Assembly (NCBI GenBank): GCA_963825295.1
Contig: CAWGSZ010000002.1
Coordinates: 31,762-95,761 of the forward strand
Length of the DNA: 64,000 bases
Direction: 5' to 3'
Origin: Vicinamibacterales bacterium
GTDB lineage: Bacteria > Acidobacteriota > Vicinamibacteria > Vicinamibacterales > JAMQPK01
Positions 1,389 to 59,733 of the stretch are shown piece after piece. Every line of letters begins with the position of its first letter. Position 1 is the stretch's first letter. The notes under the pieces were generated by a model. It was given only the letters and a program-made list of their open reading frames with translations, was not told the origin of the DNA and made no database searches. Made by a program: the position numbers and the translations under genes.

Positions 1389-2763
1389 TGAGACCAGGGA
1401 TTAGGGCAGGGATTAGGGATCGGGGATTAGGGATTGGGGCAGCGACGGGTGTCACGCTGATGCTCGCCGTGTTGGCGCCGCGCTCGGTGTCCGCGCAGAC
1501 CCCCGCGAATCTGCCTTCGCCGCGCCGCGGCTCCGGTGGCGACCGACGAACCCCACGAACCCGACGAACCCCACGAACCCTACGAACCCCACAAAGTCGT
1601 CCGACGTATCTGTTCCCCCGATCGAGTGCTGGTGGAAGACCGATCGCAGCGCGGTGAGCGTCGGCGAGCACTTCCAACTGACCCTGACGTGCGCGGTGCT
1701 CGCGACCGATCGGGTGTCGGTGGTGGTGGACGAGTCGAGCCTCGAACCGTCGGCGCTGCATTTGACGCCGTTCGAGATCATCGGCGGCCAGCGGTTTCGC
1801 GAGATCCTGAACGCGCCGCGGAAGTTCTTCCAGTACCAGTACACGATGCGCGTCCTCGGCGAGGAGTTCTTCGGCAAGGAAGTTCCGCTGCCGCGTCTGC
1901 AGATTACTTACAAGGTGCAGAACTCGCTGCAGGGCGGGGCGGCGCTCCAGGGCCGCGAGGCGCAGTATTCGCTCGTGCCGGTGCCCATCCGGGTGCTGTC
2001 GCTCGTTCCTCCAGGCGCCGTGGACATCCGCGATACCCCGAGCGACACGTTCGGCGACGTCGAGACGCGCCTCTTCCGATCGAACATCTTCCTTATTGTT
2101 GCCGCCGTGGCGTTTCTCGCCGCCGGCCTGATGGTGGTGATGCTCCTGGCGCGCGCGGCCGTCAGGCGGCGTGCGTTGACGGCGGCGCGCCATCGAACGG
2201 TCTCGTCGATGACCGTGCTCGGCGCGGCCATCCGCGAGCTCGCGATCGTGCGGGCGGAGAGCTCGCGCGCCGGTTGGACGGGCGAGCTGGCCGGGCGGGC
2301 GGCAGCGGCCGTGCGGCTGGCCGGGGCCGTCGCGTTGTCGCGTCCGGTGAGTCACAAGGAAGTGGATCGTCAAACGTCGCCCAGTGAAGGTCAGGTGGTT
2401 GCACCAGCCGGGCTCGCCACCCTGCGAGGGAAAGCCACGATGCTGTCGGCGGCCGTGACGCCTGAATCCTCTGTATCGAACGGCGATCCCCGCCCCGAAG
2501 GGCGTGGCGCCGAGTTGTGGCGATCGCTCAGCCAGTCGCTGGGTGTCTTCACGGCCGCAAGGTACACGCGCCCCTCGGCCAGCTCGGGGCGCCCCGATGC
2601 TGTTGAGGGGCGTAACGGCACGCTCGATCAGGCGGCGCTCGACTCGGCGCTGGCCGAAAGCCAGGACGCCGTGAAGCGGCTGCGTGTCCGACAGGTCCTT
2701 CGATTCGGCCGCAGGAAGCCGCACGCCGAAACCGCAGGCGCCCGACCAACATGGGCACGCTGA
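1385..2763 (+). CDS. BatD-like secreted/membrane protein, apparent frameshift between signal peptide and body
   Basis: ATG 1385 (ATGA overlap with the DUF58 stop) gives the signal peptide MMRPGIRAGIRDRGLGIGAATGVTLMLAVLAPRSVSAQ in frame 2. The body (PIECWWKTDRSAVSVGEHFQLTLTC..., ORF 1654..2763, one C-terminal TM helix) is in frame 1. Frame 1 has no start codon after its last stop at 1414-1416. The shift must lie between 1417 and 1657. The BatD assignment rests on position in the operon and architecture only. Confidence 0.5.
1397..1439 (+). repeat. GGGATTA-family tandem array with seven G-tracts (G-quadruplex motif)
   Basis: Read directly: GGG atta GGG ca GGG atta GGG atc GGGG atta GGG att GGGG. 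It lies in codons 5-18 of the downstream gene. Confidence 0.9.
1544..1588 (+). repeat. 9-bp tandem array NNACGAACC, 5 copies
   Basis: Read directly: cgacgaacc ccacgaacc cgacgaacc ccacgaacc ctacgaacc. It reads PTNPTNPTNPTNPT in the frame of the protein body. The same unit family occurs at 48876-48962. Confidence 0.9.
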
Positions 2764-3848
2764 ACGCGCTCATCGAGCTCGTCGTGCAGACGCTGGGCGA
2801 GTGGCGGGACTCGGGCATCGCGGATCTCGTCTTCCCGTCGAAGAACGCGGCGCTTCTCGCGACGGTGCTGCTGGGCCTGATGGCGGCGATTCTGGTCGTC
2901 TGGCGTTCGCTGCGGGGCCGGCTGGCCGGCCGCACGGCGATCACGCTGCCGGCGGTGCTGCCGCGCATTCGACGCTCGCCGCTGGCGTTCGTGCGGCAGG
3001 CCCCGTTCCTGCTGTTTCTCGCGGGCCTTCCGTTCTTCGGCCTCGCGCTGGCCGATCCGCACTCCACCTTGTCGGCCAAGCAGGTGTCGTATCCGGGACG
3101 CCGCATCGCCGTCATCATGGACGCCTCGCTCAGCATGCTGTCGCCGTTCAGCGGCCAGCAGCTGAAGACGCAGAGCGACACGGCCTTCTCGAACACGATG
3201 GCGGCGGCGGAGTATTTCATCCGCGTCCGCATGAAGGGGCACTACCGCGATCTGATCGCGCTCGAGCAGTTCGGGAACGAGGCGTACGTCATCACGCCGT
3301 TCACGACCGACTACGACAACCTGCTCTTGAGCCTCAAGATGATCAGCGACGTCAACGAGTGGCAGCGCTTTCCCGATCAGGGGACGATCATCATGAAGGC
3401 GATCGACGAGGGGGTCGACCTCTTCAACGCCTTCAACTTTCTCGAATCGTCGGGCAACATCATGGTGATCTTCAGCGACGGCCAGGACAACAACGTGCAG
3501 ATCGGCACGATGTCGCTGGAGCAGGTGCTGAAGAAGGCAGTGGACAACAAGGTGCCCGTCTACATGATTCGCACCGCCTACGCGCGCGGGCTGTTCGACG
3601 TCGTCCCCGATCAGGTGTGGAAGAAGGCGATCGACGCCACCGGCGGGCGGTTCTACCCGGCGGCGAGCCAGGAAACCATCATGCAGGCGATCAAGGAGAT
3701 CGACGCGGCCGCGACCGGCCGCGTGAACGTGCGCGAGTACGCCGTCAAGCAGCCGCGGTACCAGAAGTTCGCGCTGGCCGCGGTGGCGCTGTGGACGCTC
3801 GCGCTGGGGCTGCAAATGAGTCTGCGGGTGTTCAGGACGTTTCCCTGA
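2751..3848 (+). CDS. VWA domain-containing membrane protein (BatA-like)
   Basis: ORF 2751..3848. It has N-terminal TM helices followed by RRIAVIMDASLSM (a VWA MIDAS-like DxSxS motif). It overlaps the upstream gene end by 13 nt. Confidence 0.8.
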   Translation: MGTLNALIELVVQTLGEWRDSGIADLVFPSKNAALLATVLLGLMAAILVVWRSLRGRLAGRTAITLPAVLPRIRRSPLAFVRQAPFLLFLAGLPFFGLALADPHSTLSAKQVSYPGRRIAVIMDASLSMLSPFSGQQLKTQSDTAFSNTMAAAEYFIRVRMKGHYRDLIALEQFGNEAYVITPFTTDYDNLLLSLKMISDVNEWQRFPDQGTIIMKAIDEGVDLFNAFNFLESSGNIMVIFSDGQDNNVQIGTMSLEQVLKKAVDNKVPVYMIRTAYARGLFDVVPDQVWKKAIDATGGRFYPAASQETIMQAIKEIDAAATGRVNVREYAVKQPRYQKFALAAVALWTLALGLQMSLRVFRTFP

Positions 3849-3871
3849 GCACGCGCGTAACAGGAGCCAAC

Positions 3872-4579
3872 ATGCGGCGCTCAATTCCAATTTTCGTCGT
3901 TGCCATCGTGTTCGCCCTGCTGGGCGGCGTCCTGCTGTCGGCGGGACTGTTCGAGCGCAGGATGGCCATTGCCCAGGAAGACATGGCGGTCCTCGACTTC
4001 ACCGATCCCGCGATTGAATACGCGAAGCTCGAGGAGGAGATTGCGGGGGTGCCCCTGGTCTCGGAAAGCGCGCTCAAGGACATTCACCGCCGGCGCGCCA
4101 CGCTTCAGTACTGGCAAAAAGACTATGCGGACCTCATCGAGGTGGCCCGCCAGGCGGCGACCACCGACGACGCCGCCTCGATCGATCCGGAGATGCGCGT
4201 GCTGGCGGCAAACGCCCTGTATCGCGTGGCGCAGCGCGGACCGCAGGATCGCGTGACGCTCCTCAGGAATCTCGACGCGGCGGTTCGCGCCTACAACGAG
4301 GCGCTGCGCGCGGGTGTCGAGCGGCAGGACGTCGCGTTCAACTACGAGCTGGCCGTGCGGATGCGCGAAGAGGTGGGCGCCGGCAAGCGGAAGGCGCTCC
4401 AGAACATGAAGGCGGAAGACGTCGAGAGCGATCCGAACATGCACGGCGATCCCGGCGAGCCGCCGAAGGATCTGAAGGTGGAGCAGTTCCAGATTCGGAT
4501 TCCGATGGATCCGAAGGAAATCAAGCAGAGCCAGGAACAGGCCGCCGGAACCGGCGCTGCCCGCCGGAAACGCGGCTGA
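3872..4579 (+). CDS. Membrane-anchored hypothetical protein in the BatC position of the operon
   Basis: ATG 3872 is preceded by AGGAG at 3862-3866. The product starts MRRSIPIFVVAIVFALLGGVLLSAG, followed by a helical acidic/basic region. This is the tail of ORF 2684..4579, whose upstream part overlaps the VWA gene out of frame. Confidence 0.6.
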   Translation: MRRSIPIFVVAIVFALLGGVLLSAGLFERRMAIAQEDMAVLDFTDPAIEYAKLEEEIAGVPLVSESALKDIHRRRATLQYWQKDYADLIEVARQAATTDDAASIDPEMRVLAANALYRVAQRGPQDRVTLLRNLDAAVRAYNEALRAGVERQDVAFNYELAVRMREEVGAGKRKALQNMKAEDVESDPNMHGDPGEPPKDLKVEQFQIRIPMDPKEIKQSQEQAAGTGAARRKRG

Positions 4580-4582
4580 TCA

Positions 4583-4612
4583 GGGATTAGGGACTGGGGA
4601 TTAGGGATTAGG
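4583..4612 (+). repeat. GGGATTA-family array (G-quadruplex motif) filling the spacer before the next start codon
   Basis: Read directly: GGG atta GGG act GGGG atta GGG atta GG. It ends 2 nt before GTG 4615. Confidence 0.9.
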
Positions 4613-4614
4613 AC

Positions 4615-5724
4615 GTGCTCGACCGATTGATTGATTTCCAGTCGTTGCGGTTCGGCGAGCCGCTCTACTTGTGGCTGCTGGCGTTCCCTGCCCTGCTGTT
4701 CGTCCTGTGGTGCTGGCACGTCATCCGCCGCAGGGGCGACGCGCGGAGGTACCGGGCGGCGCGGCTGATTCCGGTGCGCGAGCGATTCGCGCCGGTCGGC
4801 GAGCTGGCGTTCTGGCTCGCCCTCATTGCGGCGTTGTCGCTCACCATCCTCGCGATCTCGAGACCCCAGGGCATCACCGCGATCGTCCGCAGTCCCGGCG
4901 TCGACATCGTGCTCCTCCTGGACGGCTCGACGTCGATGCGCGTGCGCGACATGGGGACCGATCGCTGGCAGCGCGGGATGCAGTGGGTGCGCACGTTCAC
5001 CAAGACGCTCAGCTGGACCGGCGATCGCATGGCGCTGGCGACGTTCGCCGACATCGCGGTGCCGCAGGTGCGGCTGACGCGCGATCCCAACACGATCCTG
5101 TTCTTTCTCGATCACCTGGACGACGCCCCGACGTTCCGGCTGGAGAACGAGACGAGCTGGAACACGAACGTGGAAGACGCGATCTACTGGGGCGTCAAGC
5201 TCGTCGACACCGACATAGAGATGTACGGTCCGAGCAAGAACGCGCGCACCTTCGTCGTCATCTCCGACGGCCAGGTCTGGAGCGGCATCGTGCAGCGGGC
5301 CATCAACGAGGCCGCCAAGCGCGGCATCGCCGTGGACGTCATCGGCATCGGCACCACGAACGGCGGCATGATTCCGCTGCCGCGCGACGACAAGGGCATC
5401 GCGCTGGCGGGCTTCGAGCCGATTCGATCGACCATCGACCGGACCTCGCTGCGCGAGATCGCGCGGGCCGGCAACGGCGAGTATTTCGAGATCGGCACGG
5501 CGCCAGACGAGCAGATCGCTGCGCGCATCATCCAGAACGCGGCACGCCGCTCGGGCAACCAGCTGGTGGACGAATCGCTCGACGAGCTCTATTGGTACCT
5601 GCTCGCCGCCGCCGCCGTCTGCCTCGGGCTGGGCGTCCTCTTCGTGAAGCAGAAGCTGCAGCTCGGCTTCGGCCTCGCCGCCGCACTTCTGTTGCTCGTC
5701 CTCATCTCCGGCCTGCGGTCCTAA
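4615..5724 (+). CDS. VWA domain-containing membrane protein (BatB-like)
   Basis: ORF 4615..5724 with a GTG start. It has N-terminal TM helices, then DIVLLLDGSTSM (MIDAS motif) and a C-terminal TM helix. Confidence 0.8.
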   Translation: MLDRLIDFQSLRFGEPLYLWLLAFPALLFVLWCWHVIRRRGDARRYRAARLIPVRERFAPVGELAFWLALIAALSLTILAISRPQGITAIVRSPGVDIVLLLDGSTSMRVRDMGTDRWQRGMQWVRTFTKTLSWTGDRMALATFADIAVPQVRLTRDPNTILFFLDHLDDAPTFRLENETSWNTNVEDAIYWGVKLVDTDIEMYGPSKNARTFVVISDGQVWSGIVQRAINEAAKRGIAVDVIGIGTTNGGMIPLPRDDKGIALAGFEPIRSTIDRTSLREIARAGNGEYFEIGTAPDEQIAARIIQNAARRSGNQLVDESLDELYWYLLAAAAVCLGLGVLFVKQKLQLGFGLAAALLLLVLISGLRS

Positions 5725-5736
5725 GCCCCGTTAAAC

Positions 5737-5768
5737 AGGAGACTAGGAGATTAGGAGATAAGGATCTG
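5737..5768 (+). repeat. 8-bp tandem array AGGAGATT, 4 copies
   Basis: Read directly: aggagact aggagatt aggagata aggatctg. It lies 13 nt after the stop of the VWA gene. There are four GGA motifs in 32 nt. Confidence 0.9.
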
Positions 5769-6060
5769 TTTTCTCGACTCCTGCTCGCCGGCTTTTTGCT
5801 CGCACTTGGGCCTGCATCTGCCTTCCCATGAAGTGGAAGCGCTCTTGACACCCCTCAAGCTCACGATCGAAAAATGGCCGTCTTAACATTCGTCCGTGAG
5901 GCCGCCACGCGCCAACGCGGTGGCCGGATCCGTCTGCGTCGCGGCCGGAACTGACGCTGCACGAACACGGCCGCTTGCAGACGGATCCGTCCCCCGCATG
6001 GCGTGCGTGGAGCGGTTGTGTGTAGTTCGGCATCAGTTGCACCAGACAAGGAGTCGGCAT

Positions 6061-6314
6061 CCGGCAGTTGGGCTGGCGTTGCTGCAGCGCGAAGCCGTGC
6101 GCAGGCGGCCGACACGTTCAATGCCTGACCGCGCGAGAAGCCTGAGGGAACCGAGCGAGGATGAAAGGCGAAGTCAGTGTCCTCGCGCCACGCGGCCGCA
6201 GTCGGCCTCGCAGCGCGCGTCCGGCCCCGAAGCTTCGGATTCGGGCGGCAGTAATGCCAACCCAACTGCCGCCTGCCGAGGCTTGATCACTTCCGGCAGC
6301 CGTGTTGGCGTGGA
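6061..6314. repeat. Three copies of a ~20-nt motif CCGGCAG-N6-TGGCGT in alternating orientation (REP/BIME-like) within a non-coding region
   Basis: 6062-6080 cggcagttgggctggcgtt pairs with 6253-6271 aatgccaacccaactgccg. That gives 17 Watson-Crick pairs, 1 GU and 1 mismatch over 19 positions. A degenerate third copy lies at 6293-6314. Confidence 0.6.
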
Positions 6315-6329
6315 AGGATGTAGCTGACG

Positions 6330-7911
6330 CTACTTCAGCGCCGGCGTGGATGCGGGCGGGCGGCGGTGATGCGTGGCCTGCTCGTACCAGATACGCCAGC
6401 TTGATCAACGTCACCTCGTCCCAGGCCTTGCCGAAGAACGTGATGCCCGCCGGCAGCGTGCCATTGCGCGTGTAGCCCATCGGCACCTGGATGGCGGGGA
6501 AGCCGGTGGTGGGTGAGAACACCTGGCTATTGTCGCCGTGCGGCGTGTTCAGATCGCCGATGAGCCGCGGCGGATTGCTCCAGGTCGGATACACGAACGC
6601 ATCGAGCCGCTCGGCCTCCATCGTCTTCATGACGGCCGCACGAAACGCCTCGCGGTAGTCCGCCTCGGCCTTGCACGCCGGTGTTTCGGGGCCGTTCTCG
6701 GCGCCTTCCTGCGCGCGCTGCAGCCGCAGCTCGACAGAAGGATGAAAGCTCCGGCTCTTGATGATCTCTTCCACCGAATGCACCGGCACGCGATCGCCCT
6801 GCGCCGCCAGATAGCGATTCATGTCGTACTTGAAGCCGCCGCAGGCGGGACCGCCGGCCATGCGCTGCACGTGGGTCAGATCGACGGCGGCGGGATCGAC
6901 GATCGTCGCGCCGGCCCGCTTCATCGTCTCGATCGCCGCCATGAACACCGAGACGATTTCCGAATCGGTCGTTTCGCGCTCGTACGCCTGCCGGAGGATG
7001 CCGATGCGCGCGCCCTTCAACGCGTCACGGACGAGCGCCGCCCGGTAGTCGGGCAGCATCGCCGGACGGCCGCCGGGACGAAGCCCCGGCTGCACGTACT
7101 CGCGTGCGAGCGTCACGGGGTCGTTCGGATCTTCGCCGGCAATGACCTGGAACACGGCGACGGCATCTTCGACCGTGCGTGTGATCGGACCCGCGATGTC
7201 GGCGAGCAGGTTCAGCGGCGCCACCCCCGCCCGGCTCGTCAGCCCCATCGTCGAGCGGATGCCCACCAGGCTCTGGTGCGAGGACGGGCCGCGAATCGAG
7301 TTGCCCGTGTCGCTGCCGAGACCCACCGCGCCGAAGTTCGCCGCCACGGCAGCCGCCGTTCCGCCGCTCGAGCCCGCGGTGACGCGATCGAGGGCGTATG
7401 GATTCTTCGTGTAGCCGGGGAGGATCGAGCTGATCGTTTCGTATGGCGTAAAGGCGAACTCCGCCATGTTCGACTTCGCGAGCACGATCGCGCCGGCACG
7501 CCTGATGCGCTGCACCTGGAACGCGTCCGCGTTCGACACGAATCCCTTCAGCGACAGCGAGCCGTCGGCGCTCTGCAGCTCCATCGTCTCGAAATTGTCC
7601 TTGACGATCGCCGGCACGCAATGGAGCGGTCCAGCGGGGACGCCGGTCTTGTACCGGCGATCGAGATCGGCGGCCTGCTTGAGGGCGGCTGGATTCGAGA
7701 CGACGAGCGCGTTGAGGGCCGGTCCCTTCTTGTCGTACGCGTCGATGCGCCGCAGGTAGTGATCGACCAGCGCGTGGCAGGTAAGGCGGCCGGCCTTCAT
7801 CTCCGCGTGAATGCCGGCAATCGTGGCCTCTTCGATCGCAAATCGCTGTCCGCCCTGCGCCGCGGCCATCGCGGTTGCCAGTGCGATCAGCGGGAAGAGC
7901 AGCCTGTTCAC
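6330..7911 (-). CDS. Secreted amidase (amidase signature family), apparent frameshift near the 3' end
   Basis: ORF 6118..7911. It carries a signal peptide and the signature [33 protein letters not shown]. After ...LIKLAY (about 6385-6390) the listed frame becomes low-complexity. A 1-nt shift reads [18 protein letters not shown] and stops at 6330-6332. Confidence 0.8.
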
Positions 7912-9312: not shown

Positions 9313-9348
9313 GAAAAAGAGAAAGGGCGCCGGATCACTCCGGCGCCC
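9313..9348 (-). terminator. Intrinsic terminator downstream of actE
   Basis: The minus strand reads GGGCGCCGG agtgat CCGGCGCCC followed by TTTCTCTTTTTC. An adjacent perfect 20-bp palindrome CTTTTTCAGGCCTGAAAAAG lies at 9300-9319. Confidence 0.65.
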
Positions 9349-9382
9349 CCTCAGCCCTTAGCCCTTAGCCCTCAGCCTTTAC
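9348..9382 (-). repeat. 7-bp array CCCTTAG/CCCTCAG, 5 copies (G-tracts on the minus, sense strand)
   Basis: Read directly: ccctcag cccttag cccttag ccctcag cctttac. It starts at the actE stop codon. The minus strand reads GG ctga GGG ctaa GGG ctaa GGG ctga GGGGG. Confidence 0.9.
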
Positions 9383-10274: not shown

Positions 10275-10287
10275 AGTGAATCTCAAA

Positions 10288-10357
10288 CTAGAATCTAAAA
10301 ACTAAAAACTAGAAACTACAACCGAGAACTGAAAACTGAAAACCGACGACTGAAAAC
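10288..10357. repeat. AT-rich 7-bp array (CTAGAAT/CTAAAAA/TGAAAAC), 10 units, filling the actC-actD spacer
   Basis: Read directly: ctagaat ctaaaaa ctaaaaa ctagaaa ctacaac cgagaac tgaaaac tgaaaac cgacgac tgaaaac. Confidence 0.9.
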
Positions 10358-12443: not shown

Positions 12444-12506
12444 CCGAATCTAAAATCTAGAATCTACAATCTGAAATCTTCGAACTGATAACTGAAAACT
12501 GAAACC
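12444..12506. repeat. AT-rich 7-bp array (TAGAATC/TGAAAAC family), 9 units, filling the actB1-actB2 spacer
   Basis: Read directly: ccgaatc taaaatc tagaatc tacaatc tgaaatc ttcgaac tgataac tgaaaac tgaaacc. Confidence 0.9.
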
Positions 12507-17961: not shown

Positions 17962-18541
17962 GGTTCGCCTCATCTTCTTCGAACAATCGATCGGCTGCGA
18001 GACGTGCGCGCCGACCAGGCGCGCGCTCGAGCAGATCGTCGACGAGAACGAGCACGTGGAGCTCGAAGCGCTCAATCTCGTGCTCGACAGGGAGAAAGCC
18101 GCCGAGTACGGCGTGGATCGGGTGCCCGCGGTTATCATCGAGGCGCCCGGACGCGATCGCATTCGCTACTACGGCGCGCCGCTGGGCTACGAGTTGCCCA
18201 CGCTGGCGGAAGCCGTGCACATGGCGGCGACCGGCGAAACGCGGCTCAGCGACGAGAGCCGCGCGCAGCTGAAAGCATTGACGACACCCGTGCACCTGCA
18301 GGTGTTCTACACGCCAGGCTGCGTCTATTGCCCGCGGATGATTTCGCTGGCGAATCAAGCCGCCATCGAAAGTCCGCTCGTGACCAGCGTGGCCATCGAT
18401 GCCGCGGAGTTCCCGGATCTCGTCCGCCGCTACAACGTGAACGGCGTGCCCAAGACGGTGATCAACGACTCGCTCGAGCTCATGGGAGCCGCGCCGGAAG
18501 AGGACTTCATGGCGGCTCTTGCCCAATCCACCGGGGAATAG
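17945..18541 (+). CDS. Two-domain thioredoxin-fold protein disulfide oxidoreductase (glutaredoxin-like)
   Basis: ORF 17945..18541. The CETC and CVYC motifs sit in two thioredoxin-like halves. It overlaps the upstream gene by 17 nt. Confidence 0.75.
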   Translation: MTSSSKVRLIFFEQSIGCETCAPTRRALEQIVDENEHVELEALNLVLDREKAAEYGVDRVPAVIIEAPGRDRIRYYGAPLGYELPTLAEAVHMAATGETRLSDESRAQLKALTTPVHLQVFYTPGCVYCPRMISLANQAAIESPLVTSVAIDAAEFPDLVRRYNVNGVPKTVINDSLELMGAAPEEDFMAALAQSTGE

Positions 18542-18564
18542 GGAATAGGGATTGGGGATTAGGG
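18533..18564 (+). repeat. GGGAATA/GGGATTA array with five G-tracts (G-quadruplex motif)
   Basis: Read directly: GGGG aata GGG aata GGG att GGGG atta GGG. It contains the upstream TAG stop (18539-18541) and the downstream TTG start (18552). Confidence 0.9.
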
Positions 18565-38762: not shown

Positions 38763-39537
38763 ATGGCCCGGCCCAAAGCCCCCACCTCCGACACCCGGCA
38801 CCGCATCCTCGCCGCCGCCGCCGCCGAGTTCGGCGACCACGGCTTCGCCGCGACCACCATCGACCGCATCGCCAGGCGCGCACGCGTCAACAAGGCGATG
38901 ATTTACTACCACTTTCCCAACAAGCGCGCCCTCTACACCTCCATCATTCGCGACGTCTTCCGGCCCATCACCGAACGCACCCGGGCCGTCATCGCCGACG
39001 ATCTCCCCGCCGATCGCAAGCTCGACCGCGTGATCGAAACCATCGTCGCCTCGCTCGACGAATCGGCGCATTTCCTCCCGATCTTCCTGCGCGAAATCGC
39101 CGACGGCGGCGCGCATCTGGGACCCGACGAGCTGGCCCTCATCGCCGGCATGTTTGCCGCGGTCAGCGGCGTCATCGCCGAGGGCGGCAGGCAGAAGGTC
39201 TTTCAGCCCGTCCATCCCGCGCTGGCGCACTTCACGATCATCGCGCCGCTCGTGATGTTCCGTGCGGCCGCACCCGTCCGCGCGCGGATCAGAAGCCGTA
39301 CGGCACGTCGATATTCCCGAAGCCGACTCGGCCACGCTCGTCCGGCATCTGCAAATGGTGGCAAGGCGCATGCTGAGTCCGGAGCGTGAGAGTCCGGAGA
39401 GTCTCGAGAGTCGGAAGAGTCTCGAGAGTCAAAAGAGTCCCGAGAGTCAGAAGAGTCTTGGGAGTCCGAAGAGTCCCGAGAGTCCTGAGAGTCACAAGAG
39501 TCCAAGTGTCAGAGAGTCGGCGAAGAGAGGCTTATGA
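38763..39537 (+). CDS. TetR family transcriptional regulator, apparent frameshift, with a repeat-encoded C-terminal tail
   Basis: It has the HTH region ILAAAAAEFGDHGFAATTIDRIARRARVNKAMIYYHF. After about 39270-39300 the listed frame becomes Arg-rich with A/T third positions. The +1 frame (ORF 39262..39537) reads AVRHVDIPEADSATLVRHLQMVARRML with G/C third positions. That frame runs through the 9-bp array to a stop overlapping the next ATG. Confidence 0.7.
39388..39504 (+). repeat. 9-bp tandem array RAGAGTCNN, 13 copies
   Basis: gagagtccg gagagtctc gagagtcgg aagagtctc gagagtcaa aagagtccc gagagtcag aagagtctt gggagtccg aagagtccc gagagtcct gagagtcac aagagtcca. Degenerate units flank it on both sides. 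Confidence 0.95.
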
Positions 39538-40542: not shown

Positions 40543-40598
40543 TGGAGTAAAAAGTCAAAAGTGAAAAGTGAAAAGTGAAAAGTTGAAGGTGAACGAGA
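40543..40598 (+). repeat. 7-bp array AAAAGTG, about 8 units, filling the hlyD-ABC spacer
   Basis: (gtggagt) aaaagtc aaaagtg aaaagtg aaaagtg aaaagtt gaaggtg aacgaga. It ends 1 nt before ATG 40600. Confidence 0.9.
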
Positions 40599-54238: not shown

Positions 54239-55221
54239 TGTACCGGCAACTCGGTAGAAGCGGCTTGAGGGTATCGGCGATTGGCCTGGGGTGCATGGGC
54301 ATGTCGCAGAGCTACGGGACGCCCGACGCCGACGAATCCATTCGCACGATCCATCGCGCCCTCGACCTCGGCGTCACGCTCGTGGATACGGCGAACGTGT
54401 ACGGCAAGGGAGAGAACGAGGAGCTCGTGGGCCGCGCCATTCGCGACCGGCGGAAAGAGGTGGTGCTGGCGACGAAGTTCGGCCTCAGCATGGGTGCCAG
54501 CGCGATGTCGGCGGGCGTTGACGCCAGGGCCGAGCTCGTCGGGCCGTCGTGCGACGCGAGCCTCGCCCGTCTCGGGGTGGACGTCATCGATCTCTACTAC
54601 CTCCACCGCGTCGATCCCGGGGTGCCCATCGAAGAGACGGTTGGGGCGATGGCGGATCTCGTTCGCGCAGGGAAAGTGCGCTTTCTCGGGCTGTCGGAAG
54701 CGGGTCCAGACACATTGCGCCGCGCGGCGAAGATTCATTCCATCGCCGCGCTTCAGTCGGAGTTCTCGCTCTGGTCGAGAGATCCGGAGCGGGGCGTGCT
54801 CTCAGCGTGCCGCGAGCTTGGCATCGGCTTCGTGCCATTCAGCCCGCTCGGCCGCGGGTTCCTGACCGGCACGGTGAAGGACACCGGCGGTCTCGTGGAG
54901 AACGACGTCCGCCGGCATCTGCCGCGCTTTCAGCAGGAGAACATTTCCCGGAACGTGCGTCTTGTCGAAGGTCTCGAGGGCATGGCGCGCTCGAAGGGCT
55001 GCTCGGCGGCGCAGCTCGCGCTCGCGTGGCTGCTGCACAAGGGCGACGACATCGTGCCCATTCCCGGCACGAAGCGCCTCCGGTACCTGGAAGAGAACGT
55101 CGAAGCCGTGAACATCACGCTGACGCCTCGAGAAATGAGCGAGCTCGATGACTCGTTTCAGGCCGGCGCCGTCGCGGGCGAGCGTTACGGACCTGAGAGC
55201 CTGAAGTTGGTGGAAAACTAG
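54235..55221 (+). CDS. Aldo/keto reductase
   Basis: It starts [24 protein letters not shown], with the ATG overlapping the corrected upstream stop (ATGA). Other motifs are LVDTANVYG and LGLSEAG. Confidence 0.85.
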
Positions 55222-55270
55222 AATCTAAAATCTAGAATCTAGAACTAAAATCTAGAATCTGAATAGAATC
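55219..55270 (+). repeat. AT-rich 7-bp array TAGAATC/TAAAATC, about 7 units; the first unit contains the AKR stop codon
   Basis: Read directly: tagaatc taaaatc tagaatc tagaac taaaatc tagaatc tgaatag aatcttc. Confidence 0.9.
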
Positions 55271-55278
55271 TTCGAGCA

Positions 55279-55572
55279 ATGCACTACCTGCTTTTTTACG
55301 AAGCCGGGGCGGATTATGCGGAACGGCGGCAGCCGTTCCGGGTGGCACATCTCCAGCACGCGCGCAATGCGGTCGCACGCGGCGAGCTCGTGCTCGGCGG
55401 CGCGCTGGCCAATCCGATCGATGGAGCCGTGCTGCTGTTCCGCGGCGATTCGTCAGCCGCCGCGGAGCAGTTTGCGAAAACCGATCCCTACGTGACGAAC
55501 GGCGTCATTCAGCGATGGCACGTGCGCGAATGGACGACGGTTGTGGGTAACGATGCTGAAACTAAAATCTAA
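55279..55572 (+). CDS. YciI family protein
   Basis: ORF 55279..55572. It reads MHYLLFYEAGADYAERRQPFRVAHLQHARNAVARGELVLGGAL. The last codons (AETKI) come from the next array. Confidence 0.8.
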   Translation: MHYLLFYEAGADYAERRQPFRVAHLQHARNAVARGELVLGGALANPIDGAVLLFRGDSSAAAEQFAKTDPYVTNGVIQRWHVREWTTVVGNDAETKI

Positions 55573-55610
55573 AAACTAGAATCTAGAATCTGGAATCTGA
55601 AACCTTAAGA
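55556..55610 (+). repeat. AT-rich 7-bp array CTAAAAT/CTAGAAT, about 8 units
   Basis: Read directly: ctgaaa ctaaaat ctaaaaa ctagaat ctagaat ctggaat ctgaaac cttaaga. Confidence 0.9.
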
Positions 55611-58550: not shown

Positions 58551-58620
58551 GATCTAGAAACCAGGAACTGAGATCCAGAGATTTCAGATTCTAGTTTGTA
58601 GATTTTAGTTTCTAGATTCA
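58551..58620. repeat. Dyad arrangement of the CTAGAAA-family 7-mers: 4 forward units then 6 reverse-complement units
   Basis: ctagaaa ccaggaa ctgagat ccagag, then agatttc agattct agtttgt agatttt agtttct agattca. tctagaaac (58553) pairs with gtttctaga (58608). It abuts the stop of the YVTN gene. Confidence 0.85.
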
Positions 58621-59733
58621 GCGAATAGCCACGCCCCACGGACTCCGGCCGCCGGGCACCGTCGCGATGACCGCCATCGTCTCGGCGTCGATGACGGAGA
58701 TGTCGTTCGACGGGCCGTTGGCGGTGTAGAGGCGCTTGCCGTCGGGCGAAATGCCTACACCCCACGGCCGCTGGCCCGCCTTCACGGATCCCACCACCTC
58801 GTCCTTGGCCGTATCGATGGCAAGGAGCATCGTGCCCCGGCCGGTGGTGACGTACACGCGCTTGCCGTCGGGCGCGGCGATGACGCCCATCGGTCTCGCG
58901 AGCTCGCCGGTGATCTTGAGCGTCTTGGTCACCGAGTGATTTTTCGTGTTGATGACGTGCACGGTGCCGCCGTTCTCGGCCGTGATGTACGCCTTCGAGC
59001 TGTCTGGTAGAAATTCCGACGATCGGGGGCGCGCGCCGACCTCGAACTGCTTGATCGCCTTGTTGGTGGCGGTGTCGATGACCGTAATCTGATTGTCCTC
59101 TTCCGACGTGACGTACACCCACTGACCGTTCGGGCTCGTCGTGACGCCCTCCGGCTCGCCGCCGACCTTCACTTCCCCGATCACCTTGTTGCTGGCGACG
59201 TCGAGGATGCTCGCGACGCCCGCGTCCTCGTTCGACACGTAGACCTTCGAGCCGTCCGCGCTCAGCGAAATTTGCTCGGGGTCCGATCCGCTGGTGAGCA
59301 CGGTCGTGACTTTCCGCGCCGCGATGTCGACCACGCCTATGCCGTCGGCAGTCCGGTCGGGGGGCGGTAGCTTGCTCTCATCCGTTCCCGGTGGCGCCAT
59401 CGGCGACCCGCTGAGCGCGACGAACAGCTTCGTCCCGTCCGGGCTCACCTTGATGCCCCTCGGTCGCTTGCCGAGCGGGATCGTCGTGACGACCTGATTC
59501 GTGCCGCCATCGATGACAGTCAGATCGCCGCCGATTTCATTCGTGACATAGACGTAATACGGCGCTTTCGGCGGCTCCGGCGCGGGTGCCGCCGGCGGAG
59601 GAGCGGCAGCCTGTTCAGGCTGCGGCTGACCACCGCCGCACCCGGAAATCGCGGCCAGCAAGATCAGCGAAGAAAGCGTGACGCGCGCGTTCAGAGCTAA
59701 TCCCCAATCCCTAATCCCTAATCCCTTGCTCAT
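58618..59733 (-). CDS. YVTN-family beta-propeller repeat lipoprotein
   Basis: ORF 58618..59733. It has the lipobox LLAAISGC and repeats YVTNE, YVSNED, YVTSEED, YITAENG and YVTTGRG. A GGAGAG ribosome-binding site lies 6 nt upstream of the ATG. Confidence 0.8.
   Translation of the reverse strand: MSKGLGIRDWGLALNARVTLSSLILLAAISGCGGGQPQPEQAAAPPPAAPAPEPPKAPYYVYVTNEIGGDLTVIDGGTNQVVTTIPLGKRPRGIKVSPDGTKLFVALSGSPMAPPGTDESKLPPPDRTADGIGVVDIAARKVTTVLTSGSDPEQISLSADGSKVYVSNEDAGVASILDVASNKVIGEVKVGGEPEGVTTSPNGQWVYVTSEEDNQITVIDTATNKAIKQFEVGARPRSSEFLPDSSKAYITAENGGTVHVINTKNHSVTKTLKITGELARPMGVIAAPDGKRVYVTTGRGTMLLAIDTAKDEVVGSVKAGQRPWGVGISPDGKRLYTANGPSNDISVIDAETMAVIATVPGGRSPWGVAIR
59702..59725 (-). repeat. GGGATTA array (four G-tracts on the minus, sense strand) in codons 4-11 of the YVTN gene
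   Basis: The plus strand reads cccc aat ccc taat ccc taat ccc. The minus strand reads GGG atta GGG atta GGG att GGGG. Confidence 0.9.

What the first reader, a model, noticed from the sequence alone, without database searches (positions are those of the whole stretch)
5725..6329. A 600-bp gene-free region dense in long inverted repeats may be a structured RNA or a REP/BIME-like cluster
This is the only long non-coding stretch in the window. It contains four structural features.
- The AGGAGATT array with four GGA motifs (5737-5768).
- A 65-nt hairpin with 13-bp plus 7-bp stems: 5925-5937 pairs with 5977-5989, and 5941-5947 pairs with 5968-5974.
- A 19-position long-range pairing, 6062-6080 with 6253-6271, that encloses about 170 nt. 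The enclosed stretch has further hairpins, for example 6155-6161 with 6180-6186.
- A third, degenerate copy of the CCGGCAG...TGGCGT motif at 6293-6314.
The ORFs listed here (5743..6060, 5861..6265, 5896..6327) are Arg/Ala-rich and unconvincing. I checked by eye for tmRNA, RNase P, SRP RNA and tRNA hallmarks and found none.
Basis: seen in the sequence. Interest (0 to 1): 0.55.

Follow-up and report, generated by a model that had tools for sequence, protein, structure and literature searches.

The report
Dispersed hairpin repeat in decayed spacer
The 600-bp gap between two convergent genes of a soil Vicinamibacterales bacterium holds the remains of a small gene plus one copy of an undescribed ~220-nt hairpin-forming repeat that recurs at unrelated sites in related genomes; it is a new example of a familiar kind of bacterial intergenic repeat, and its function is unknown.

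Summary
The region is a mosaic of four parts.

1. 5737-5831 is the ribosome-binding region and truncated signal-peptide stub of a small secreted-protein gene. That gene is intact in relatives.
2. 5908-6005 is a local ~100-nt hairpin.
3. 6049-6283 is one copy of a new ~220-nt element, which I call E. Its outer stem is ~37-47 bp and covaries. Its core is almost invariant. Wobble pairs are strand-biased (G·U 27, A·C 8).
4. Short inverted repeats at 5905-5928 and 6292-6314 bound the hairpin and E. This whole block lies in the opposite orientation in sister genomes L009 and L021.

E occurs in at least six unrelated gene contexts in metagenomes. Some copies are multi-copy or truncated, and some alternate with GTAG-tagged REP hairpins. 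It matches no Rfam family and no phage or plasmid record. No second copy was found in 389 kb of related DNA, so it is not a high-copy REP.

Best reading: E is a low-copy, non-autonomous structured repeat in the manner of REPIN, MITE or ERIC elements, probably transcribed within 3' UTRs. Interest is moderate.

The parts
5737..5764 (+). 8-nt tandem array AGGAGAYW (3.5 copies). It is the Shine-Dalgarno and start-codon region of a small secreted-protein gene. It is one of many 7-8-nt tandem arrays in this genome's spacers.
   Evidence: searches (D1) show the array. In L001 the homologous AGGAGATTAGGAGATG supplies the ATG of a called 92-aa gene. In L010 and L008 a TTG start follows it. There is no fold signal (z = 0.09).
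5766..5831 (+). Truncated remnant of the small secreted-protein gene: a CTG in place of the TTG start, 21 signal-peptide-like codons (LFSRLLLAGFLLALGPASAFP), then TGA at 5829-5831.
   Evidence: Sequence. Comparison with L010, L008 and L001. The intact ~140-aa homologues in L006 and L012 are shown.
5832..5904 (.). Spacer with no similarity to any relative fetched.
   Evidence: blastn against all loci.
5905..5928 (+). Left inverted repeat (CCACGCGCCAACGCGGTGGCCGGA) bounding the segment that is inverted in L009. It also forms the 5' base of hairpin B.
   Evidence: I4: 84% complementary to 6292-6310. One search gives the alignment with reverse-complemented L009. One search shows a perfect 14-nt inverted-repeat pair in L009.
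5908..6005 (+). Hairpin B, about 98 nt. It is present in L009 within the inverted block and deleted in L021. No copies were found elsewhere.
   Evidence: -66.1 kcal/mol, z = -7.1. Searches show conservation in L009. One G-C to A-T compensatory change was read directly from the sequences.
6049..6283 (+). Element E: one full copy of a dispersed ~215-230-nt hairpin-forming repeat family. The inferred single-strand sense is the + strand.
   Evidence: nhmmer E = 1e-64. Alignment A2. Consensus fold. Pair counts: 95.2% paired and 0 of 500 shuffles reach the covariation score. G·U to A·C is 47:8 raw and 27:8 after collapsing lineages. Fold z = -4.4.
6054..6097 (+). 5' arm of E's outer stem. Its inner end, GCGCGAAGCCG, is conserved. 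The rest covaries with the 3' arm.
   Evidence: I1; helices 1 and 2: 15 of 37 pairs have changes on both sides.
6236..6279 (+). 3' arm of E's outer stem. The adjacent core stretch 6209-6283 is what survives in the 5'-truncated copies of L001-L004, L036 and L038.
6292..6314 (+). Right inverted repeat (TCCGGCAGCCGTGTTGGCGTGG).
   Evidence: (D2, I4, I7).
5905..6314 (.). Block made of the left repeat, hairpin B, E and the right repeat. Its orientation is reversed in sister genomes L009 (89% identity) and L021 (87% identity, hairpin B deleted).
6118..6332 (-). 3' end of the amidase reading frame. The conserved stop (TAG) is at 6330-6332. A 1-nt insertion near 6391 shifts the frame, so the window ORF reads on through E's 3' half to 6118.

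Best explanation
The spacer is a decaying, rearranging patch of DNA between the 3' ends of two convergent genes in a Vicinamibacterales (Acidobacteriota) genome. The genes are a VWA/BatB-like gene on the + strand and an amidase on the - strand.

The left third is what remains of a small secreted-protein gene: its ribosome-binding array and a signal-peptide stub.

The rest is a block bounded by short inverted repeats. It holds a local ~100-nt hairpin and one copy of element E. E is a previously undescribed repeat of ~215-230 nt. It folds into a long rod with an outer stem of ~37-47 bp that varies in sequence but stays paired, and a nearly invariant inner core.

E behaves as a low-copy, non-autonomous dispersed element in the manner of REPINs, MITEs or ERIC elements. 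It sits in unrelated intergenic sites, mostly just downstream of a gene on the same strand. Its copy number varies between orthologous loci. It occurs as truncated and internally deleted copies. In some genomes it alternates with GTAG-tagged REP hairpins.

Inferred, not shown: E is transcribed as part of the upstream gene's 3' UTR. The hairpin is what selection, or the element's own propagation, preserves. As RNA it would block 3' exonucleases, offer an RNase III target, or insulate the convergent genes from each other. The block was flipped in the L009/L021 lineage by recombination between its flanking inverted repeats, not by a dedicated switch.
For: Organism and synteny:
- The small gene is intact at ~140 aa in L006 and L012 and progressively shorter in L008, L001, L010 and the window. 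It is absent in L009 and L021.

E is a family:
- An exact 23-mer from its core found 11 metagenome contigs, and only 2 of them are this locus.
- nhmmer finds 9 full copies and 7 or more partial copies.
- Flanking genes differ between copies: PALP enzyme and IDO, cytochrome c, PQQ dehydrogenase and 3-keto-disaccharide hydrolase, disulfide isomerase, and a DDE transposase.

Structure:
- 68 consensus pairs, 17 with compensatory changes.
- 95.2% of cells are paired, against 33-42% when partners are slid, and the covariation score is 0.263 against 0.132 in shuffles, reached by 0 of 500.
- Inner helix P3 has compensatory changes in L033. L032 changes C-G to U-A, and L035 carries the C·A intermediate.
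- Strand bias: G·U to A·C is 27:8 after collapsing lineages (p = 0.002), and 17:5 in the outer stem alone (p = 0.017).

Non-coding: third-position GC is flat in all frames and indels are not multiples of three.

Turnover: L037 has three copies within 1.3 kb in both orientations. The orthologous locus L035 has one copy and a different number of GTAG-REP hairpins.

Inversion: window 5905-6271 matches L009 6517-6155 on the opposite strand at 89% identity, bounded by CCACGCGCCAACGC and its complement.

Position: most copies lie downstream of a gene on the same strand, namely the window, L009, L021, L035, L037b, L031, L010 and L001.
Against: - No transcription data exist. No sigma-70-like promoter or intrinsic terminator matches the consensus scan.
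- No target-site duplication and no conserved terminal sequence were found, so the mode of spread is unknown.
- No transposase or other protein partner is linked to E. The one DDE transposase, next to L032, looks incidental.
- Copy number looks low, with none in about 325 kb of other related DNA. A selfish-repeat reading is therefore not proven.
- An invariant core with a freely covarying outer stem is the reverse of a typical MITE, where the termini are the conserved part. That pattern is what a functional RNA would show.
- L033/L039 and probably L029 carry E antisense to the flanking genes.
- The family was sampled with a probe from its 3' core, so the apparent excess of 5'-truncated copies is an ascertainment artefact.
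- Only 8 full copies from about 4 lineages support the statistics.
Confidence: 0.55

Rival explanations
1. E is purely selfish DNA that moves as a single-stranded DNA hairpin, like REPINs or IS200/IS605-derived palindromic elements. An unlinked HUH tyrosine transposase (RAYT or TnpA) would mobilise it. The conserved core and the strand-biased G·T pairs would reflect recognition of one DNA strand. There would be no RNA role.
For: - There are no target-site duplications and no conserved termini, as expected for Y1-transposase elements.
- In L031, L032, L034, L035 and L037, E sits next to or alternates with GTAG-tagged hairpins (GTAG-TGTCCGGCTTCAGCCGGAC). These fit the published GTAG-REP definition (PMC3733652).
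- The numbers of E copies and REP hairpins differ between the orthologous loci L035 and L037.
- The strand-biased wobble pairs are also compatible with single-stranded DNA.
Against: - No RAYT or Y1 transposase gene was seen near any copy.
- The window-lineage copies have no GTAG hairpins nearby.
- E is 2-3 times longer than known REPINs, and its arms are not REP-like.
- Copy number appears low.
Confidence: 0.2
2. E is a functional structured non-coding RNA gene family. It could be a protein-binding or scaffold RNA, or a rod-shaped regulator like 6S RNA. Each copy would be kept by host selection. The dispersal would reflect gene duplication, not mobility.
For: - The core helices P2-P5 are invariant or nearly so in 8 copies, while the outer stem changes at 15 or more pairs and stays paired.
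- G·U pairs are in excess on one strand.
- There are compensatory changes in inner helix P3.
- No Rfam family matches, so it would be new.
- It is a rod with a 15-nt bulge whose sequence varies between copies.
Against: - Truncated and internally deleted copies exist. L037 has three copies in both orientations within 1.3 kb. E is present or absent between orthologous loci.
- L008, a relative with 99% identical VWA protein, lacks E at this locus altogether.
- No promoter or terminator was detected.
- No conserved neighbouring gene exists.
Confidence: 0.13
3. The 5905-6314 block is a programmed invertible DNA switch (an inverton) that a site-specific recombinase flips to control a neighbouring gene.
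For: Inverted repeats of 14-22 nt flank a 380-410-bp segment, and the segment is found in both orientations among genomes whose flanking VWA proteins are 97% identical to the window's.
Against: - Both neighbouring genes present their 3' ends to the segment, so an internal promoter could only drive antisense transcription.
- No promoter-like site lies inside it.
- No recombinase appears among the ~15 called genes around the locus in relatives.
- The inverted-repeat motif is not linked to E copies elsewhere.
- The two orientations are seen only between genomes, together with deletions. That looks like a fixed rearrangement.
Confidence: 0.05
4. Nothing functional is here. The pairings are chance products of GC-rich pseudogene debris.
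For: - The region does contain gene debris, namely the small-gene stub and the amidase frameshift tail.
- GC-rich sequence folds strongly in general.
Against: - Fold z-scores of -4.3 to -7.1 against dinucleotide shuffles.
- Homologous copies in unrelated contexts with compensatory changes.
Confidence: 0.02

Closest known systems
REPINs and REP/BIME clusters (GTAG-tagged REPs mobilised by RAYT transposases; Bertels and Rainey 2011; Di Nocera et al. 2013, PMC3733652)
   Same: - E is extragenic and mostly lies downstream of genes.
- It forms a long imperfect hairpin.
- It is dispersed, and copy number varies between close relatives.
- It has no target-site duplication.
- In L035 and L037 it is interleaved with genuine-looking GTAG hairpins, giving a BIME-like mosaic.
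   Different: - E is ~220 nt, against 20-40 nt for a REP and ~70-110 nt for a REPIN.
- Its arms carry no GTAG or CGTC tag and differ between copies.
- The conserved part is the interior, not the palindrome arms.
- Copy number appears low.
- No RAYT gene was seen.
- The window copy has no REPs around it.
Bacterial MITE-like structured repeats transcribed into mRNAs (ERIC in enterobacteria, Correia/NEMIS in Neisseria, RUP in pneumococcus, RIME in rhizobia). The element-specific details are recalled from general knowledge; only the MITE class itself appears in review titles and abstracts listed (PMC3184786, PMC10969869), which I did not open.
   Same: - The size class is the same, 100-250 nt.
- The ends are inverted repeats that fold into a long RNA hairpin.
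- The location is intergenic, often in a 3' UTR.
- Truncated variants and presence/absence differences occur.
- No coding capacity.
   Different: - No conserved terminal sequence and no target-site duplication.
- No cognate insertion sequence.
- The termini covary freely while the core is invariant, which is the reverse of the usual MITE pattern.
- The phylum differs (Acidobacteriota), and there is no sequence similarity to any of them (no Rfam, plasmid or phage hits).
6S RNA and other rod-shaped regulatory RNAs
   Same: - About 200 nt.
- A long irregular hairpin with a large one-sided internal loop.
- A strand-specific excess of G·U pairs.
   Different: - No match to Rfam 6S models even at E = 10.
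- Multiple, truncated and inverted copies at one locus.
- Absent from a close relative at this locus, and not linked to any conserved neighbour.
Invertons (phase-variable invertible promoters)
   Same: Short inverted repeats bound a ~400-bp segment that is found in both orientations.
   Different: - It lies between two gene 3' ends.
- No promoter or recombinase was detected.
- The two orientations are seen only between genomes.

Membership tests
REP (GTAG/CGTC-tagged repetitive extragenic palindromes) | Short palindrome of 20-40 bp (stem 5-13 bp, loop 2-20 nt) | tested here: not met
   E is 215-230 nt with an outer stem of ~37-47 bp. The definition is from PMC3733652.
REP (GTAG/CGTC-tagged repetitive extragenic palindromes) | Unpaired GTAG or CGTC tetranucleotide at one end | tested here: not met
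   The ends of E differ among copies and carry no common tag. GTAG-tagged hairpins do exist beside E in L031, L032, L034, L035 and L037, but they are separate units. None lies in the window spacer.
REP (GTAG/CGTC-tagged repetitive extragenic palindromes) | Tens to thousands of copies per genome | tested here: inconclusive
   One copy in the 64-kb window and none elsewhere in ~325 kb of related loci. An exact 23-mer gave only 11 contigs in 241 million metagenome records. Whole genomes could not be scanned.
BIME-like mosaic cluster | Several repeat modules, including REPs in alternating orientation, clustered in one extragenic site | tested here: inconclusive
   The window holds hairpin B, E and two short inverted repeats but no REPs. 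L035 and L037 have E copies alternating with GTAG hairpins, in numbers that vary.
MITE | Terminal inverted repeats with conserved termini matching an autonomous insertion sequence | tested here: not met
   Inverted terminal arms exist, but their sequence and end points differ between copies. No insertion sequence with matching ends was seen. The DDE transposase next to L032 lies outside a truncated copy.
MITE | Target-site duplication flanking each copy | tested here: not met
   No consistent direct repeat flanks the 8 full copies. L029 has a possible TA and L033 a possible 7-of-8 match, and both may be chance.
MITE | Small (50-500 bp), non-coding, several copies in unrelated sites, presence/absence differences between strains | tested here: met
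REPIN | Two inverted REPs plus a spacer forming one hairpin, with a cognate RAYT gene in the genome | not testable with these tools
   E's arms are not REP-like. Whether a RAYT gene exists needs whole genomes, which could not be scanned here.
Any Rfam 15 RNA family | A covariance-model score at or above the family's gathering threshold | tested here: not met
   Zero hits at gathering thresholds in the window. In the spacer and in six other E-bearing loci the only weak hits were to eukaryotic and viral miRNA-precursor models and a lncRNA model, all far below threshold; one weak bacterial sRNA hit (BjrC68) lay outside E.
Inverton (invertible promoter switch) | Inverted repeats flanking a segment found in both orientations | tested here: met
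   The two orientations are seen only between genomes.
Inverton (invertible promoter switch) | A promoter inside the segment facing the 5' end of a gene, and a nearby site-specific recombinase | tested here: not met
   Both neighbours present their 3' ends. No promoter-like site was found. No recombinase appears among the called neighbours in relatives.
Structured RNA (generic) | A conserved secondary structure supported by compensatory changes and strand-specific G·U pairs | tested here: met
   The support is strong for the outer stem. It is thin for the inner helices, with 2 covarying pairs in P3, because the core barely varies.
Structured RNA (generic) | Evidence of transcription | not testable with these tools
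   No expression data are available.

The most novel reading that the evidence does not exclude
E is not selfish DNA but a new class of functional structured RNA in Vicinamibacterales. It would be, for example, a scaffold or guide RNA for an unlinked protein, or a 6S-like rod-shaped regulator. Its invariant core would be the functional surface, and its outer stem would only need to pair. The inversion at this locus would then swap which convergent gene's transcript carries the sense RNA.
Probability: 0.15. Interest if true: 0.7.

Novelty: new member of a known kind. Interest (0 to 1): 0.4.

Why it matters
Vicinamibacterales are abundant soil bacteria that are almost entirely uncultured. I found no record of their non-coding DNA or repeat content in Rfam or in two literature searches.

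This work defines a concrete new repeat or RNA family: an alignment, a consensus fold and a diagnostic 23-mer. The family has an unusual conservation pattern, an invariant core with a covarying stem. That makes it a reasonable candidate for covariance-model searches and RNA-seq.

It also shows how one intergenic spacer turns over among genomes whose flanking proteins are 97-99% identical. Gene decay, repeat gain or loss, and inversion all occur there.

If E turns out to be only a REPIN- or MITE-like element, the result is a routine addition to the catalogue of bacterial intergenic repeats.

Tried and rejected
- **Rfam.** cmscan at gathering thresholds on the whole window gave nothing. Permissive scans of the spacer and of six other E-bearing loci gave only sub-threshold hits to eukaryotic and viral miRNA-precursor and lncRNA models, plus one weak bacterial sRNA hit outside E. 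The region is not tmRNA, RNase P, SRP, 6S, a riboswitch or any described motif.
- **Repeats within the window.** Pattern searches and blastn-short found no other copy of any motif. This rejects a high-copy REP.
- **Exact-protein look-up.** The VWA protein was not on record.
- **Six-frame translation search.** I concatenated six-frame translations of E and searched the 5.8-billion-protein collection, hoping for spurious ORF calls on other copies. There were no significant hits. This route to more family members failed.
- **Phages and plasmids.** The viral contig scan with the 23-mer and blastn against phage and plasmid collections gave no match.
- **Promoter and terminator scan.** Nothing was found.
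- **Target-site duplications and conserved termini.** None was convincing.
- **Link between the local inverted-repeat motif and other E copies.** None.
- **Clean insertion site.** The L035 versus L037 comparison shows replaced sequence at the junction, not a clean insertion.
- **Test of 'only long non-coding stretch'.** A filter on third-position GC proved unreliable and I abandoned it.
- **Excess of 5'-truncated copies as a sign of retro-transposition.** Rejected. The probe lies in the 3' core, so 5' fragments could not have been found.
Full report
**What the sequence shows.** Every feature in the finding is present at the stated coordinates.
- The 8-nt AGGAGAYW array lies at 5737-5764.
- The hairpin with 13-bp and 7-bp stems is part of a larger ~98-nt hairpin at 5908-6005. 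It folds at -66 kcal/mol, with z = -7.1 against dinucleotide shuffles.
- The 19-position long-range pairing is the middle of a 44-nt, 82% complementary inverted repeat, 6054-6097 with 6236-6279. The 235-nt unit it closes folds with z = -4.4 on the + strand and -4.7 on the - strand.
- The 'third copy' at 6292-6311 is real, and a fourth, inverted copy lies at 5910-5928.
- The array region itself has no fold signal (z = 0.09).
- Rfam gives nothing at gathering thresholds and only sub-threshold hits to miRNA-precursor and lncRNA models otherwise.

**Setting.** The window comes from a Vicinamibacterales (Acidobacteriota) genome of the kind assembled from Danish soils. The spacer lies between the 3' ends of a VWA/BatB-like gene (4615-5724, + strand) and an amidase on the - strand. 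In six relatives the amidase ends ...[25 protein letters not shown], which places its stop at 6330-6332. The window has a 1-nt insertion near 6391, so its ORF runs on to 6118.

**The left third is a dead gene.** In relatives a small gene follows the VWA gene.
- It is intact at ~140 aa in L006 and L012. The protein has a signal peptide and then ...LDPRIGPP..Y...RDGQDW.NP.L.VC.DGVHL.ARSI....
- It gets progressively shorter in L008, L001 and L010.
- Its Shine-Dalgarno and start region is the AGGAGATT array. L001 reads AGGAGATTAGGAGATG, and L010 reads AGGAGATAAGGATTTG.
- The window has CTG in place of the start codon, then 21 signal-peptide-like codons and a stop at 5829-5831.
- Similar 7-8-nt tandem arrays fill many other spacers of the window. 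One example is GATTAGG, five copies, directly before the VWA start codon. The array is therefore a genome-wide spacer style and not part of a special RNA.

**The right part holds a member of a dispersed family.** I scanned metagenome contigs with an exact 23-mer from 6219-6241 and got 11 contigs. Only two of them are this locus.
- A profile search finds nine full-length copies of a 215-230-nt element, which I call E. They are in the window (6049-6279), L009, L021, L029, L033 (with L039 as a near-duplicate), L035 and L037 (two copies). There are also truncated or internally deleted copies in L032, L010, L037, L034, L001-L004, L036, L038, L031 and L030.
- The flanking genes are unrelated: a PALP enzyme and IDO, cytochrome c, a PQQ dehydrogenase and a 3-keto-disaccharide hydrolase, a disulfide isomerase, and a DDE transposase.
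- No second copy exists in the 64-kb window or in about 325 kb of other Vicinamibacterales loci. There are no matches in phage, plasmid or viral collections. E is therefore dispersed but low-copy, and it is not a REP found all over the genome.

**Structure and conservation of E.** The eight full copies align as A2. They give a rod-like consensus fold of 68 pairs.
- The outer stem differs in sequence from copy to copy yet stays paired. 17 pairs have changes on both sides.
- 95.2% of cells are paired, against 33-42% when partners are slid. The covariation score is 0.263 against 0.132 in shuffles, and 0 of 500 shuffles reach it.
- The inner helices are almost invariant. P3 still shows G-C to A-U in L033. 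In L032 it shows C-G to U-A, and L035 carries the C·A intermediate.
- Wobble pairs are strand-biased. After collapsing related copies there are 27 G·U and 8 A·C (p = 0.002). In the outer stem alone, where pairing is the same on both strands, the counts are 17 and 5 (p = 0.017). A single-stranded form in the sense of the window's + strand is therefore what is preserved.
- No frame looks coding.
- Stem ends differ between copies. There is no conserved terminal sequence and no convincing target-site duplication.

**Turnover.** L035 and L037 are orthologous loci at 90-93% identity.
- L037 carries two full copies of E and one internally deleted copy, in both orientations. L035 carries one copy.
- In these genomes E alternates with 25-nt hairpins of the form GTAG-TGTCCGGCTTCAGCCGGAC. 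These fit the published definition of GTAG-tagged REPs (PMC3733652). This is a BIME-like mosaic.
- L008, whose VWA protein is 99% identical to the window's, lacks E at this locus.

**Inversion.** Window 5905-6271 matches L009 6517-6155 on the opposite strand at 89% identity. Window 6023-6271 matches L021 in the same reversed way at 87%.
- The alignment places the break points in the short inverted repeats, CCACGCGCCAACGC... at 5905-5928 and its imperfect complement at 6292-6314.
- The block of hairpin B plus E has therefore been flipped between genomes whose flanking VWA proteins are 97% identical to the window's. L021 has in addition lost hairpin B.
- Both neighbouring genes present their 3' ends to the block. 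No promoter-like site lies inside it. No recombinase is among the neighbours in relatives. I read this as a fixed rearrangement by recombination between the repeats, not as a programmed switch. Only reads from a single population could settle that.

**Interpretation.** What is shown:
- E is a new, conserved, structured, non-coding, dispersed element.
- The spacer is a mosaic of gene debris, a local hairpin and E.
- The block bounded by the inverted repeats exists in both orientations.

What is inferred:
- E spreads as non-autonomous DNA in the manner of REPIN, MITE or ERIC elements.
- Because most copies lie just downstream of a gene on the same strand, E is transcribed into 3' UTRs. There its long hairpin could protect or process the transcript, or insulate convergent genes.

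The main rivals are three:
- a purely DNA-level hairpin transposon mobilised by an unlinked Y1 transposase;
- a genuine RNA gene family, since the invariant core with a covarying stem is what a functional RNA would look like;
- an inverton.

The support is thin in places. There are eight full copies from about four lineages. They were sampled with a probe from the 3' core, which also explains the apparent excess of 5'-truncated copies.

**Verdict.** E is a new member of a known kind, the structured intergenic repeats, found in a poorly studied phylum. Interest is moderate.

Noticed in passing
window 1396-1439, 4578-4612, 9348-9381, 10285-10343, 12447-12504, 18534-18564, 40546-40583, 55218-55264, 55562-55602, 58582-58619, 59697-59726: Many spacers of this genome carry 3-8 tandem copies of relatively AT-rich 7-8-nt units (AGGGATT, GATTAGG, CCCTTAG, AAACTAA, CTAGAAT and others). 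Some sit directly before start codons. The GATTAGG array at 4578-4612 recurs nearly identically in the unrelated contigs L033 (3302-3335) and L039, where an inverted copy follows it. Similar heptamer arrays flank E in L029. Their role is unknown.
   Followed up: partly
window ~6391 (amidase, - strand; ORF 6118-7911): A 1-nt insertion relative to six relatives shifts the amidase frame 23 codons before its conserved stop at 6330-6332. The ORF is extended by about 70 codons, through E's 3' half. L008 has an independent 1-nt insertion a few bases away. This is either a long-read indel error or a real frameshift.
   Followed up: partly
L037 563-709, between inverted E copies at 234-462 and 1050-1280; orthologue in L035 around 3720-3866: A 48-aa hydrophobic small ORF (MKRRLTSMDPIATIDPRFRFGIAWLAAFLGFVLILAAVMVAISIASPM) lies between two 220-nt, 92% identical inverted copies of E. 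The layout resembles a composite transposon. The ORF is conserved in L035, which lacks the second E copy.
   Followed up: no
L031, L032, L034, L035 (3310-3375), L037 (217-241, 1017-1041): These contigs carry GTAG-tagged REP-like hairpins (GTAGTGTCCGGCTTCAGCCGGAC), singly or in tandem, next to E copies. The 2013 survey of GTAG and CGTC repeats listed GTAG repeats only in Proteobacteria, Cyanobacteria, Chloroflexi and the PVC superphylum, so Acidobacteriota would be an added phylum. No such hairpin is in the window spacer.
   Followed up: partly
window 39388-39518: A tandem repeat of an 18-nt unit (GAGAGTCCGAAGAGTCTC), about 7 copies at 80% matches. The unit is partly self-complementary. I did not examine it further.
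   Followed up: no
L006 7293-7715, L012 ~6098-6550, L008 6111-, L001 7136-7414, L010 6155-: The small secreted protein downstream of the VWA gene is intact (~140 aa) where no amidase follows immediately. It is progressively truncated in the sublineage that has the amidase next to it. The amidase arrival and E seem to have eroded this gene.
   Followed up: partly
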